Below, in pieces: positions 226 through 3,220 of a DNA stretch of 64,000 nt. This DNA comes from Yuukianura sp. NJ FZ-2021. Its lineage: Eukaryota. The stretch covers positions 620,001 through 684,000 of the forward strand of contig CM102290.1 in the NCBI GenBank assembly GCA_046563655.1. The letters are read 5' to 3'. A program made the position numbers and the translations under genes. A model generated the notes under the pieces. It was not told the origin of the DNA, made no database searches, and saw nothing but the letters and a program-made list of their open reading frames with translations. The first letter of the stretch is position 1. Every line of letters begins with the position of its first letter.

Positions 226-3220
226 GTTTCGGAACGTGCAACTAATGCGCATGGAGCCCCAGTAGCTACTCTCACAAAGTCATTGACCGTAGGAAGTCGT
301 GGACCGATTTTACTGCAAGACACGGCTCTCATCGAGCATCTTGCTCACTTTGACCGCGAGCGAATTCCAGAAAGAGTCGTTCATGCCAAGGGAGCCGGTA
401 AGTTCCAAAAAAAAACGAAAAAAAAAAAAACGATAAATTTCGAAATTTTATTTAGCTTTTCCGAAAAAAAAAGGAAATTTAAAACAATGAAAAACATGGA
501 TGTAAATTAAAACTTCCAATTTCCTGTTCGGTTTTTAGTAAAAACCGAACCACGTTCGATTTCATGAAATCGTAACATTTATTCCGCGCAACTAACGTCA
601 AAATTCTAAAGTAATGTTAAAATTTCGAATTTTTTTTCTACGACTAATAACTCATGTGCCATAAAAATTGTACTTTTGAAACTCAAACTTGTTTTTCTTT
701 CCAAAATTTTTTCTGTGACTTTATGTTGTTGACTTTTTGTTGGAATAACAATTCAAGGTCACTTTTTTCTCAAGATTGATTCGATTAACGTGTTAAAGTG
801 GTTGTGGCCGTCTCACCACATTTCACAATTTCTTGATAGGGTGGAAAAAATGGTTTGAATGTTCAAGAAACAAGAGTTTCCAGCTTAAAATTTTGACACA
901 CCTTCTCAAATTTTTTTTCTTTAATTTTTTTGAAACTGGATTCATCAGTGTGCTATATGCTTATATCCAGCATTTGACCTTCAACTTCTTAGAGAAGGTC
1001 AACGAATTTTTGGAAAAGCTGAGCATGTTGACCTTTGACTTTCATAAAATACTGATAAAATGCGTTACTTTATTTCAATTTTTTTTTGAAAATTTTGTTT
1101 CATAATTTTATTTTGGTTTTTAGCTGCTTTTGGAGTCTTTGAAGTGACTCACGACATTTCCAAGTACACAAAAGCCAAAGTTTTTGGAGGAATTGGGAAA
1201 AAGACGAACATTGCCATTCGATTTTCAACTGTCGGCGGAGAAAGTGGATCTGCCGATACTGTTAGAGATCCAAGAGGTATAAAATTATATTAAAATAATA
1301 TAATAATATGATATATTATATAATTTTTATACATTATTTTATTATTTAAAACTTTAAAGGGTTTGCTGTTAAGTTCTACACGGAAGATGGAAACTGGGAT
1401 CTCGTTGGCAACAACACGCCGATTTTCTTCATTCGGGATCCAATTCTCTTCCCAAGCTTCATCCACACACAAAAACGAAATCCACAAACACATCTCAAGG
1501 TCAGGAAAATTTCAACTCCATTTTCAAAAATTTCACTTTTTCAAAATTTTTTTTGTCCAGGATGCCGACATGTTCTGGGACTTTATCTCACTTCGCCCCG
1601 AAACGACTCACCAAGTCAGCTTTCTATTTTCGGATCGTGGAATTCCAGATGGACATCGACACAGTACGTTATATTATGGGGAGCACGCCATTGTTTCGAA
1701 AAGATTGTTTCGAAAAATAATTGTTTCGAAACACAAATTGTTTAGGGTTAGATTGCCTTAGAATACAAATGAGCGTTTCGAAACAATTATTTTTCGAAAC
1801 AATTCAATTCGAAACATTTCTATTCGGAGCAATGGCATGTGGAATCCGTTACTCCAAAATTCTAAAAAAATCCTCTTTTTTTCTAAATCAAAAAATTATG
1901 TTTTTATTTATTTTTATTTTTTAAAAATTTTTTTCAGTGAACGGCTATGGATCCCATACGTTCAAGTTGGTCAACGCCGCTGGAGAGCCTGTTTACGCCA
2001 AGTTCCACATGAAAACTGACCAAGGCATTAGGAATCTTCCAGTTGAAAAAGCTGACCACCTCGCTTCGGCTGACCCCGACTACGGAATTCGTGACCTGTT
2101 CAATGCCATTGAAACCAATAACTTCCCTTCATGGTCAATGAAGATCCAGGTCATGACGTTCGAGCAAGCCGAGAAATTCCGCTGGAACCCCTTCGATGTC
2201 ACCAAGATTTGGCCACACTCGGAATTCCCCTTGATCGACGTCGGCAAACTCACACTCAATCGGAATCCAGTCAACTACTTTGCCGAAGTTGAGCAACTAG
2301 CTTTCGCTCCAGCAAATATGATTCCAGGTAAGGTTCCTTGACAACCATATCATTTTTCTGAACAGGTTGCGTAATACCTCCGTTGTTTACCAAAAAATGC
2401 AAATGACAAAAGTCTGAGTACCGTTGGTACCAATCCGAAAAAATTCGAGTTTTTGGTATCAATTCGTGTGTGAAATTTTTTAAAATCGCTAATTTTAAAA
2501 TTGTTATGGTTGCAATACGCTAAAATGCAAATTAACTTTTTTTTTTGTCAAATCGAAAGAAAAAACATGAGTTATTACGGAACCTGCTAGGGAAAATTAT
2601 ATCAACAAACCTTGTGTCTTGCCAAATTGAAAACAACACGAGTTATTATAGGGAAAATTAAACCAACAAACCTTGTTTTTTGCAAATCTTAAAAAACATG
2701 AGTTATTACGCAACCTGTTAAGGAAAATTAAATAAAAAAACCTTGGATTGCAGGAATTGAGCCTTCACCGGACAAGATGCTGCAGGGACGACTGTTCTCT
2801 TACATTGACACTCACCGACATCGTCTTGGGCCAAACTATGCCCAGATCCCAGTCAACTGCCCCATGCACAAACCACACACCTACACTCGGGATGGATTCA
2901 TGTCAGTTGACACGCACTCTGGTGGAGCACCCAACTACTTCCCCAATAGCTTCAATGGACCATTTGAAGATCCAGAAGGAGTTGCTTCTGGCTACCAAGC
3001 CAGTGGCGACGTCATCCGAGAAGACACGAGTGGACACGACAACTTTTCGCAAGTCAACAACTTCTGGATGAACGTTTTGACTCCAGCGGAACGCAAACGT
3101 CTGGCGGCAAATATTGCTGGAAGTGTCAAAAACGCTTCAGAGGCTATTCGTGAACGAGCAATTGGAAACTTCACTAAAGTAAACGCTGAGTACGGAGCGA
3201 TGATTAGACAGGCATTGTAA
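226..3220 (+). CDS. Cat: Catalase (heme, monofunctional); first exon(s) upstream of window. Exons approx. 226-397, 1124-1276, 1360-1499, 1561-1663, 1938-2327, 2754-3220
   Basis: Spliced translation contains [16 protein letters not shown] (active-site His), [38 protein letters not shown] and the proximal heme-ligand motif [18 protein letters not shown] boundaries keep frame. Confidence 0.97.
1678..1847. mobile_element. Small inverted-repeat element (MITE/HINE-like) in a catalase intron; related sequence near 19760-19890
   Basis: cacgccattgtttcgaa ... ttcggagcaatggcatgtg inverted ends, internal tgtttcgaa/ttcgaaaca repeats and a central tagggttag. Similar ttcggaacaatggcg end near 19870. Confidence 0.55.
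2329..2745. mobile_element. CAAGG-family MITE copy forming almost the entire catalase intron 2328-2753; right end triplicated
   Basis: taaggttccttgacaac...aacaggttgcgtaatacctc left end; gagttattac...aacctgtta...aaaccttg right end present three times (ending approx. 2614, 2675, 2745). Flanks gattccagg / gattgcagg. Confidence 0.85.

What the first reader, a model, noticed from the sequence alone, without database searches (positions are those of the whole stretch)
2320..2754. Catalase intron equal to one MITE plus one target-site duplication: candidate transposon-created (introner-type) intron
Seen: the 426-nt intron (2328-2753) consists of a CAAGG-family MITE (2329-2745, 417 nt) flanked by near-identical 9-mers gattccagg (2320-2328) and gattgcagg (2746-2754). 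Removing the element plus one 9-mer regenerates the spliced coding sequence ATT CCA GGA ATT GAG exactly. The donor is the last G of the left 9-mer plus the first base of the element, and the acceptor AG comes from the right 9-mer. Most other copies start with CAAGG, while this one starts with TAAGG. Inference: insertion into an exon first gave an AG|GCAAG GC-type donor (the same donor context as the PP1 intron in this window), and a later C-to-T change made it GT. Established: introner transposons create introns by co-opting TSD and terminal bases as splice sites. Caveat: TSDs of other copies are degenerate and fit 8 bp (15650, 14615) or 9 bp (17121).
Basis: partly seen in the sequence, partly recalled or inferred. 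Interest (0 to 1): 0.85.

Follow-up and report, generated by a model that had tools for sequence, protein, structure and literature searches.

The report
Transposon-made intron in a catalase gene
A small mobile DNA element that landed inside the coding sequence of an animal's catalase gene now seems to be removed as an intron, a clean single example of an already known way in which new introns arise.

Summary
The last catalase intron (2328-2753, 426 nt) is one G, a 417-nt MITE (2329-2745) and 8 nt. The flanking 9-mers GATTCCAGG and GATTGCAGG match at 8 of 9. Removing the element plus one 9-mer leaves a catalase reading frame with no gap and no insertion.

The element ends are set independently by nine other window copies and by genome-wide copies in DNA runs. 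The 9-mer match alone is weak evidence, because ordinary introns reach up to 6 of 9. The strong evidence is that no other intron sequence is left.

Best reading (0.75): a MITE inserted into an exon and is spliced out, with the TSD supplying most of both splice sites. This mechanism is already known from introners.

Not shown:
- Splicing. No RNA run was listed.
- Recency. No empty site was seen, and the insertion appears to be present in a second, about 1% different sample (flanking junctions not seen).
- Family-wide intron making. Only 1 of 10 window copies is an intron.
- The GC-to-GT step. T-ended termini are a family variant (4 of 20).

New complication: ORF fragments from five unnamed distant lineages break at the same Gly codon. 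The widespread animal intron lies 28 nt downstream.

Verdict: new member of a known kind, moderate interest.

The parts
226..3220 (+). Catalase gene, exons 2-7 of the model. The first coding exon lies outside the window or was not recognised. Exons: 226-397, 1124-1276, 1360-1499, 1561-1663, 1938-2327, 2754-3220 (stop included).
   Evidence: One search gives the model: 474 codons with no stop. Searches give PDB catalase matches (E 8e-63 and 5e-48); exon 6 is 90% identical to the unnamed protein P0006.
1938..2327 (+). Exon 6, ending ...AAT ATG ATT CCA G.
   Evidence: aligns to 3re8_A residues 210-338 end to end.
2320..2328 (+). Left target-site duplication, GATTCCAGG. Its last G is the first base of the intron.
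2328..2753 (+). Inferred intron, 426 nt, phase 1 in the Gly codon. Donor cag|GTAAGG, acceptor ttgCAG|ga.
   Evidence: Inferred from protein alignment only; there is no RNA evidence.
2329..2745 (+). MITE copy, 417 nt, with ends TAAGGTT...AACCTTG.
   Evidence: family alignment; loose ends of other genomic copies at 2330 and 2745, and depth peaks over both ends.
2329..2380 (+). Left terminal inverted repeat, including the conserved core at 2359-2380.
   Evidence: 2 mismatches to the core; ends are reverse-complementary.
2560..2675 (+). Two extra internal copies of the right-end unit (2560-2614 and 2621-2675). They account for the unusual length of this copy.
   Evidence: family D3: 89% identity between 2560-2614 and 2691-2745, and 62% for 2621-2675. 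One search shows the self-hits.
2691..2745 (+). Right terminal inverted repeat.
2746..2754 (+). Right target-site duplication, GATTGCAGG. It supplies the acceptor AG (2752-2753) and the first base of exon 7.
2754..3220 (+). Exon 7 (GA ATT GAG ... stop). It contains the RLFSY motif.
   Evidence: aligns to 3re8_A residues 340-492.
14615..14850 (+). MITE copy, 236 nt. The 8-bp flanks match at 6 of 8.
15650..15969 (+). MITE copy, 320 nt, with a degenerate left end. The 8-bp flanks match at 7 of 8.
17121..17405 (+). MITE copy, 285 nt. The 9-bp flanks match at 8 of 9. Its right terminus has the T variant.
19495..19743 (+). MITE copy, 249 nt.
24764..24998 (+). Diverged MITE copy, 235 nt.
34507..34782 (-). 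MITE copy, 276 nt, in the opposite orientation to the catalase copy.
35929..36200 (+). MITE copy, 272 nt.
38055..38316 (-). MITE copy, 262 nt.
57725..57851 (.). Short MITE form, 127 nt, essentially the two TIRs.
   Evidence: One search shows that many genomic copies skip 2398-2690 in the same way.
62665..62772 (+). PP1 intron 1 with the GC donor gaag|GCAAGC. It is not related to the MITE.
   Evidence: My exon model.

Best explanation
A non-autonomous DNA transposon inserted into the coding exon of a catalase gene at the target GATTCCAGG. The element is a MITE with terminal inverted repeats of about 50 nt and 8-9-bp target-site duplications. Its superfamily is unknown.

The duplicated target and the element's first base together form a working intron. 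The last G of the left TSD plus the element's T give the donor, cag|GTAAGG. The CAG of the right TSD gives the acceptor. Splicing therefore removes the element plus exactly one TSD length and restores ...ATT CCA G|GA ATT GAG... ([12 protein letters not shown]).

Shown: the anatomy, the family, the TSDs, and the restored frame at protein level.

Inferred: that the intron is spliced, that the exon was uninterrupted before the insertion, and when the insertion happened. The TIRs can pair in the pre-mRNA and bring the two splice sites together; whether this helps or hinders splicing is also inference.
For: 1. The intron is G, the element and 8 nt, with nothing else.
2. The element ends at 2329 and 2745 are defined independently. 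Twenty termini of 10 window copies show a sharp conservation boundary. Other genomic copies in DNA runs lose similarity at 2330 (10-12 contigs per run in X1, X2 and X4) and at 2745 (6 contigs in X2, 5 in X4).
3. The flanking 9-mers match at 8 of 9, equal to the best-kept TSD of the family (copy 17121). Ninety mismatched flank pairs never exceed 6 of 9.
4. Exons 6 and 7 align to 3re8_A residues 210-338 and 340-492. The mRNA-like contig L001 of a relative has a poly(A) tail and reads ATGATTCCAGGAATC across the site. P0006, P0007 and P0008 read [12 protein letters not shown] or [12 protein letters not shown] without a break.
5. Retaining the intron gives a stop after GKVP. Yet all 474 modelled codons are open, and dN against L001 and L002 is 0.14 with dS saturated.
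6. Contrast within the same gene: intron 5 also holds a high-copy palindromic repeat, but keeps about 19 nt and about 98 nt of ordinary intron sequence on either side.
7. The 3' region is element-like rather than intron-like. Pyrimidine content at -23 to -4 is 0.35, against 0.55-0.75 in 9 other introns.
8. The usual animal intron near here (after ...DKMLQ) is absent from this gene. It is seen in 19 fragments among the 240 proteins.
9. The mechanism is established. [quoted passage not shown]
Against: - No RNA evidence exists for the junction.
- The TSD match alone is weak. Three of 9 ordinary introns reach 6 of 9 in the same register. Six of the 165 other 9-mers ending in CAGG match at 8 of 9 or better.
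- ORF fragments of five unnamed lineages (P0142, P0140, P0219, P0151, P0180; 54-68% identical to exon 6) stop being homologous exactly at this Gly. P0142 also begins at our exon 6 start. An older intron at this position therefore cannot be excluded.
- No empty site was seen, and the insertion appears to be present in both independent samples; the second showed internal pieces of this copy but neither flanking junction.
- The weak pyrimidine tract and a strong TIR hairpin covering the donor (-104 kcal/mol, z -4.5) could make splicing inefficient.
- A catalase paralog exists in the genome, so this copy need not be the functional one.
Confidence: 0.75

Rival explanations
1. An older intron already lay at this Gly codon, shared with lineages such as that of P0142. 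The MITE landed in it, and later deletions removed nearly all the original intron sequence. On this view the 9-mer match reflects splice-site consensus plus chance.
For: - Five unnamed lineages break at the same codon, and in all five the first unrelated residue fits G|GT followed by a purine (T, T, E, V, G after the Gly).
- P0142 shares both boundaries of exon 6.
- Ordinary introns reach 6 of 9 in the TSD register.
- MITEs in introns are common, as in intron 5 of this same gene.
Against: - Only 1 nt on the left and 8 nt on the right of the element are not MITE, far less than any working intron. The shortest of 10 introns modelled here is 61 nt. The leftover equals exactly one TSD length.
- An insertion 1 nt into an intron would leave the rest of that intron after the right TSD. 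None is there.
- In the weakly resolved tree, each same-site lineage has close neighbours that read through: P0130, P0150, P0139/P0144 and P0161.
- Vertebrate fragments carry their intron 28 nt downstream and none at this site.
Confidence: 0.12
2. The MITE simply disrupts this catalase copy. It is not spliced out, the copy is a young pseudogene, and a paralog supplies catalase.
For: - A second catalase-like sequence is present in the DNA runs. Its exon 4 region has 15 differences in 135 nt (records 10 and 27).
- No RNA evidence exists.
- The acceptor region is poor, and the donor lies inside a strong predicted hairpin.
Against: - All 474 modelled codons are open, and exon 7 downstream of the element is as catalase-like as the rest.
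- The insertion appears to be shared by two samples that differ by about 0-3% (junctions not seen in the second), so it is not brand new.
- A G before the element and an AG at TSD positions 7-8, which give frame-exact excision, would be a coincidence under this reading.
- The donor cag|GTAAGG is among the most consensus-like of the 10 donors compared.
Confidence: 0.06

Closest known systems
Introners: intron-generating non-autonomous DNA transposons. Micromonas and Aureococcus are recalled from Huff et al. 2016. The survey by Gozashti et al. 2022 (PMC9860276) was seen as passages.
   Same: A short TIR element with TSDs. The intron equals the element plus one TSD. Splice sites are partly co-opted from the TSD. 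The mRNA length does not change. The survey reports GC donors in some families and introners in an animal group (copepods).
   Different: Only one intron-forming copy is shown here, and 9 of 10 window copies are not introns. Family-wide genic use could not be tested. The element contributes only the T of the GT (plus AAGG), and the TSD supplies the G and the whole acceptor AG. The 9-bp TSD is at the top of the 3-9 bp range quoted in that paper.
Single transposon-derived introns and transposons spliced from transcripts. [quoted passage not shown] Maize Ds/dSpm splicing is recalled from Purugganan and Wessler 1992.
   Same: A one-off insertion into an exon is tolerated because splice signals at or near the element ends allow its removal.
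   Different: Here removal would be exact to the nucleotide and would use canonical GT-AG. The maize cases, as recalled, are mostly imprecise.
MITE-derived non-canonical introns of the tunicate Fritillaria borealis (PMC11282704, passages).
   Same: An animal genome, with introns that have TIRs and with TSDs at the exon-intron junctions.
   Different: Those introns use AG-AC or AG-AT ends and a modified splicing tolerance. This one is canonical GT-AG.
Parallel intron gains at identical sites flanked by short direct repeats in Daphnia (recalled, Li et al. 2009; not read here).
   Same: Direct repeats flank a new intron. The same site may be hit in several lineages (five other lineages here).
   Different: The Daphnia inserts are not transposons with TIRs. 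Independent gain is not shown here.

Membership tests
MITE (non-autonomous TIR DNA transposon) | Terminal inverted repeats | tested here: met
   The core TTAACAGGTTGGGTAATACCTC is present at both ends of 10 copies with 0-6 mismatches. The termini read [C/T]AAGGTT.
MITE (non-autonomous TIR DNA transposon) | Target-site duplications of fixed length | tested here: inconclusive
   Two of 10 copies match at 8 of 9. Copies 15650 and 14615 match at 7 of 8 and 6 of 8, and two more at 5 of 8. Controls reach at most 6 of 9 and 4 of 8. TSDs are real, but the length (8 or 9 bp) is not settled, so the superfamily stays open. hAT, Merlin and Mutator-like ranges are recalled, not tested.
MITE (non-autonomous TIR DNA transposon) | Many copies, small size, no coding capacity | tested here: met
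   Ten copies of 127-417 nt lie in 64 kb. Summed depth over the TIR bins is 8-18 times that of neighbouring bins in run X1, and many contigs have differing flanks.
Introner family | Element boundaries coincide with intron boundaries, give or take the TSD | tested here: met
   Met for this one copy only.
Introner family | Several similar copies that each form an intron in unrelated genes (at least 5 per genome in PMC9860276) | tested here: not met
   One of 10 window copies forms an intron. A genome-wide test was impossible because no genome is held.
Introner family | The copies are spliced from transcripts | not testable with these tools
   No RNA holder was listed.
Recently gained intron | Absence at the orthologous site in close relatives, or presence/absence polymorphism | tested here: inconclusive
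   No genomic sequence of a close relative was found. No empty-site joint appears among the joints listed, and 14 further joints were not shown. Distant lineages give mixed signals.
Catalase (Pfam PF00199, clade of animal monofunctional catalases) | End-to-end similarity to solved catalases across the junction | tested here: met
   (E 8e-63 and 5e-48). The nearest proteins carry PF00199 and PF06628.

The most novel reading that the evidence does not exclude
This CAAGG...CCTTG family is a true introner family of a little-sequenced, arthropod-like animal. Many of its genomic copies would sit in exons as TSD-spliced introns, entering as GC-AG introns and maturing to GT-AG by a C-to-T change at the first base. 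In addition, the catalase CCA G|G site would be a hotspot where introns were gained independently in at least five other lineages, which would make parallel, transposon-driven intron gain at a protosplice site directly testable.
Probability: 0.2. Interest if true: 0.75.

Novelty: new member of a known kind. Interest (0 to 1): 0.5.

Why it matters
Clear single-locus examples in which an animal GT-AG intron still shows its founding transposon, both TIRs and the target-site duplication are uncommon. They show in one picture how an exon insertion can be neutralised by splicing.

If the family proves to make introns genome-wide, it would add an animal lineage to the introner list. It would also offer a natural test of two ideas: GC-to-GT donor maturation, and repeated intron gain at the same protosplice site. 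As it stands, this is one well-formed instance of an established mechanism in a housekeeping gene.

Tried and rejected
- **Whole genome.** None is held, so no genome-wide count of MITE-equals-intron cases was possible.
- **Sequencing runs.** No RNA holder was listed. All five runs are DNA, four of them from one sample.
- **Laid contigs.** No joint skipping 2329-2754 was listed, but 14 joints were not shown, so this is no evidence of absence. One odd joint in X5 (1415 to 1955) was left unexplained.
- **Close relatives' genomic loci.**
  - The two protein searches with exon 6 found only three close proteins (81-90% identical), all on cDNA-like contigs of about 1.7 kb.
  - The metagenome scan with P0006 kept 80 of 328 confirmed stretches. 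All were uninterrupted (cDNA-like or bacterial), and P0006's own contig was not among them.
  - The cluster look-up gave no organism names for 10 proteins.
- **dN/dS.** dS against L001 and L002 is saturated, so it gives no timing.
- **Tree of exon 6.** It uses 129 columns. Twenty-eight of 53 inner branches have under 80% support. I used it only for nearest-neighbour statements.
- **Tandem Repeats Finder.** It found no array inside the element at score 30. The three right-end units come from the repeat finder.
- **Rfam.** One tRNA only, so no help with taxonomy.
- **Earlier findings of this scan.** Nothing by place, by sequence or by words.
- **ATTGC after CCTTG.** Copy 14615 shares this with the catalase copy, which might have meant the element runs past 2745. 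I rejected that, because the other flanks and the loose ends disagree.
- **Nematode origin.** This was my first guess. I dropped it because named nematode catalases are only 64-69% identical, and the best named hit of the ATRX exon is a springtail at 49%.
- **Junction test.** A search with the whole spliced protein was not run. The junction was tested exon by exon instead.
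Full report
**1. What is at the coordinates.**
The window carries an animal catalase gene on the + strand. My exon model has six exons: 226-397, 1124-1276, 1360-1499, 1561-1663, 1938-2327 and 2754-3220. 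It gives 474 open codons. The first coding exon is missing or unrecognised. The nearest full-length protein, P0006, begins with about 20 residues that I could not place in 1-225.

The finding concerns the last intron, 2328-2753 (426 nt). One search confirms the letters:
- 2320-2328 is GATTCCAGG and 2746-2754 is GATTGCAGG.
- 2329-2745 is 417 nt, beginning TAAGGTTCCTTGAC and ending AACCTTG.
- The two ends are reverse-complementary.

**2. The splice junction at protein level.**
Exon 6 (window:1940-2326) aligns end to end with catalase 3re8_A residues 210-338 (E 8e-63). Exon 7 (window:2756-3217) aligns with residues 340-492 of the same chain. Exactly one residue, the split Gly codon, lies between them.

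The three closest proteins (P0006, P0007, P0008; 90, 84 and 81% identical to exon 6) read [12 protein letters not shown] or [12 protein letters not shown] without a break. L001, the contig of P0007, ends in AATAAA and a poly(A) run, so it is an mRNA. It reads ATGATTCCAGGAATC over the site, identical to exon 6 plus exon 7 here.

If the intron stayed in the message, the frame would stop after GKVP. That would remove the C-terminal third of the enzyme. That third includes the RLFSY motif; its role as the haem-ligand motif is recalled, not tested here.

**3.
A 22-nt core occurs in inverted pairs at ten places in the window. Aligning the 20 termini shows:
- Background-level conservation at positions -12 to -1 (at most 0.46 bits).
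- An abrupt rise at positions +1 to +7 (1.2-2.1 bits; the consensus is CAAGGTT).
- C at the first base in 15 of 20 termini, T in 4 and A in 1.

Copies are 127-417 nt long. The catalase copy is the longest because it carries two extra internal copies of its right-end unit (family D3).

DNA contigs of public runs give independent support:
- Summed depth over the two TIR bins is 1909 and 3389 in run X1, against 230-370 beside them.
- Contigs of other genomic copies lose similarity at 2330 (12, 10 and 11 contigs in X1, X2 and X4) and at 2745 (6 in X2, 5 in X4).
- The consensus letter just before 2330 is C in all three runs.
- Many copies skip 2398-2690, like the 127-nt window copy.

**4. Target-site duplications.**
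- Two copies (the catalase copy and 17121) have 9-bp flanks matching at 8 of 9.
- Copies 15650 and 14615 fit 8 bp at 7 of 8 and 6 of 8, and two more fit at 5 of 8.
- Ninety mismatched flank pairs never exceed 6 of 9 or 4 of 8.

The family therefore makes TSDs of 8-9 bp, but the exact length and the superfamily stay open.

**5. How much of this is chance.**
The 8 of 9 match is less impressive than it looks. The 9-mers straddle splice sites, and both must contain AG|G-like letters.
- Nine ordinary introns of the catalase and PP1 genes, scored in the same register, give 1-6 of 9. Three of them give 6 of 9.
- Of the 167 window 9-mers ending in CAGG, 8 match GATTCCAGG at 8 of 9 or better, the two real ones included.

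The decisive point is different. After subtracting the element, the intron has 1 nt on the left and 8 nt on the right, exactly one TSD length. The shortest of the ten introns modelled is 61 nt.

Intron 5 of the same gene shows what a repeat inside an older intron looks like. A high-copy palindromic repeat (depth peak 6721 at 1711-1824 in X1) sits there with about 19 nt and about 98 nt of ordinary intron on its sides.

**6. Splice signals.**
- The donor cag|GTAAGG is among the most consensus-like of the ten donors compared.
- The acceptor is ttgCAG|g, but the 20 nt before it are A-rich. The pyrimidine fraction is 0.35, against 0.55-0.75 in the nine other introns. That fits a 3' end inherited from the element rather than a tuned intron.
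- As RNA, the TIRs pair into a long stem that brings the two splice sites together and also covers the donor (-104 kcal/mol; 0 of 100 shuffles fold as well). Its effect on splicing is unknown.

**7. Population and age evidence.**
- Only DNA runs were listed.
- Contigs of X1, X2 and X4, which come from one sample and may be the source of the assembly, cover both junctions: 2319-2720 with 0 differences, and 2699-3400.
- A run of another study (X5) differs from the window by about 0-3% in the listed pieces. It holds 151-nt pieces at 2383-2533 and 2560-2710 with 0 differences, at the same low depth as the flanking exons. Since family copies differ by 15-30%, this is most likely the same insertion, though no listed X5 piece spans either junction with the exons.
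- No empty-site contig was listed.
- The insertion is therefore not brand new. Its private changes fit some age: T at 2329, G at 2360 where 14 contigs of other copies have T, and the one TSD mismatch.

**8. Comparative evidence, which is new and cuts both ways.**
No genomic sequence of a close relative was found. However, the protein collection holds ORF fragments called on genomic contigs of unnamed eukaryotes. Their homology stops where an intron starts.

Among the 240 proteins:
- Nineteen stop after ...DKMLQ, followed by 4-48 unrelated residues. Sturgeon and other vertebrate-like fragments are among them. This is the common animal intron, 28 nt downstream of ours. Our gene lacks it.
- Five stop exactly at the Gly of PG: P0142, P0140, P0219, P0180 and, one residue on, P0151. 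They are 54-68% identical to exon 6.
- In all five, the next residue fits G|GT followed by a purine.
- P0142 also starts at our exon 6 start.
- P0130, the nearest neighbour of P0142, instead has an in-frame 24-codon insert two codons further on.

In a weakly resolved tree of exon 6, each same-site fragment sits next to sequences that read through the site: P0130, P0150, P0139/P0144 and P0161, with support 91-97. Our exon groups only with P0006-P0008 (support 90-92).

The position is therefore used in scattered lineages. That means either repeated gain at a CCA G|G protosplice site or patchy survival of an older intron.

**9. Mechanism and odds.**
- **Best reading (0.75).** The element inserted into the then-uninterrupted exon. 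The TSD supplied the G of the donor and the whole acceptor. The element supplied the T and the AAGG extension. Splicing removes the element plus nine bases.
- **GC-then-GT step: plausible, not shown.** PP1 intron 1 in this window has the donor gaag|GCAAGC under my model, so GC donors seem to be tolerated. But TAAGG ends occur at 4 of 20 termini, so the T may have been there at insertion.
- **Rival: an old intron overwritten by a MITE plus deletions (0.12).**
- **Rival: an unspliced, disabled gene copy (0.06).** A paralog exists. Against this rival stand the open, conserved exon 7 and the frame-exact GT and AG.

**10. Comparison with what is known.**
The mechanism is that of introners and of single transposon-derived introns.
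- Passages of Gozashti et al. [quoted passage not shown] They also report GC donors in some families, and hosts 'from copepods to basal protists'.
- Passages of the review PMC11282704 state that singular transposon-derived introns are reported in many eukaryotes, and describe MITE-derived introns in a tunicate.
- In PMC12130899 a term search for arthropod, copepod, Merlin, hAT and MITE found nothing relevant.
- Supplementary tables of these papers, which list host species and families, were not opened. They may already include the group this organism belongs to.

Membership in an 'introner family' is not established, because one of ten window copies is an intron and the genome could not be surveyed.

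**11. Host.**
Catalase exon 6 is at most 78% identical to any named protein. The large ATRX exon has a springtail as its best named hit at 49%, with other arthropods at 40-45%. I read this as an arthropod-like animal with no sequenced close relative in the collection. Confidence in that is low.

**12. Verdict.**
It is not supported, or not testable, for recency, for the GC-to-GT history and for family-wide intron making. This is a new member of a known kind, of moderate interest. Interest would rise if the genome-wide survey or the same-site introns of other lineages turn out as in the novel case.

Noticed in passing
window 1664-1937 (repeat about 1683-1840): Catalase intron 5 holds a palindromic repeat built from the motif ATTGTTTCGAAA (5 exact copies, 3 on one arm and 2 on the other). 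It has very high summed depth in the DNA runs (6721 against about 180 in X1), but no other copy in the window. It lies inside the intron with ordinary intron sequence on both sides.
   Followed up: partly
window 2754-2790 compared with protein fragments: The intron that many animals, vertebrate-like fragments included, have after ...DKMLQ is absent from this gene (19 fragments). Within about 25 codons, other lineages show breaks after FAE, AEV, HLV, PG, GIE and MLQ. This stretch of catalase has unusually varied intron positions.
   Followed up: partly
window 58-90: caaggtgaatgctttccttgac resembles the MITE terminus CAAGGTTCCTTGAC with 8 extra bases. It lies just upstream of catalase exon 2. 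It may be a solo or broken TIR.
   Followed up: no
window 62665-62772: PP1 intron 1 appears to be a GC-AG intron (gaag|GCAAGC ... ttacag|tg) under my exon model. An in-frame GT 13 nt further on would replace the Val with five residues (GKQYL, four more in all), which PP1 proteins as I recall them do not have.
   Followed up: partly
window 23015-24294: A 35-bp satellite of about 36 units at 93-97% identity. It is also read as long imperfect inverted repeats.
   Followed up: no
window 26057-26305 (+): An ORF ending ...CIRRGSRCDHRPDDCCSGGACRCNLWGANCQCQ matches Pfam Toxin_9, a spider-toxin-type cystine knot (E 1.1e-5, 26 bits against a cutoff of 21.3). It may be a small secreted knottin gene, and it fits an arthropod-like host weakly.
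   Followed up: partly
Read laying records 10 and 27 over window 1371-1505: A second catalase-like sequence (15 differences in 135 nt of exon 4) is present in runs of both studies, so the genome has a paralog or a diverged second haplotype. Its structure at the exon 6/7 site is unknown.
   Followed up: no
window 46476-46691 (-): A 24-bp in-frame tandem repeat (7 units) inside a 407-codon ORF with no Pfam match.
   Followed up: no
window 3838-7700 (+): An F-spondin-like gene (Reeler, Spondin_N, TSP1 and Kunitz domains) lies directly downstream of catalase. A BTBD17-like gene, a Tudor-domain ORF, a SNAPC1-like ORF, ATRX, a pseudouridine synthase, a BTB_2 gene and PP1 follow.
   Followed up: no
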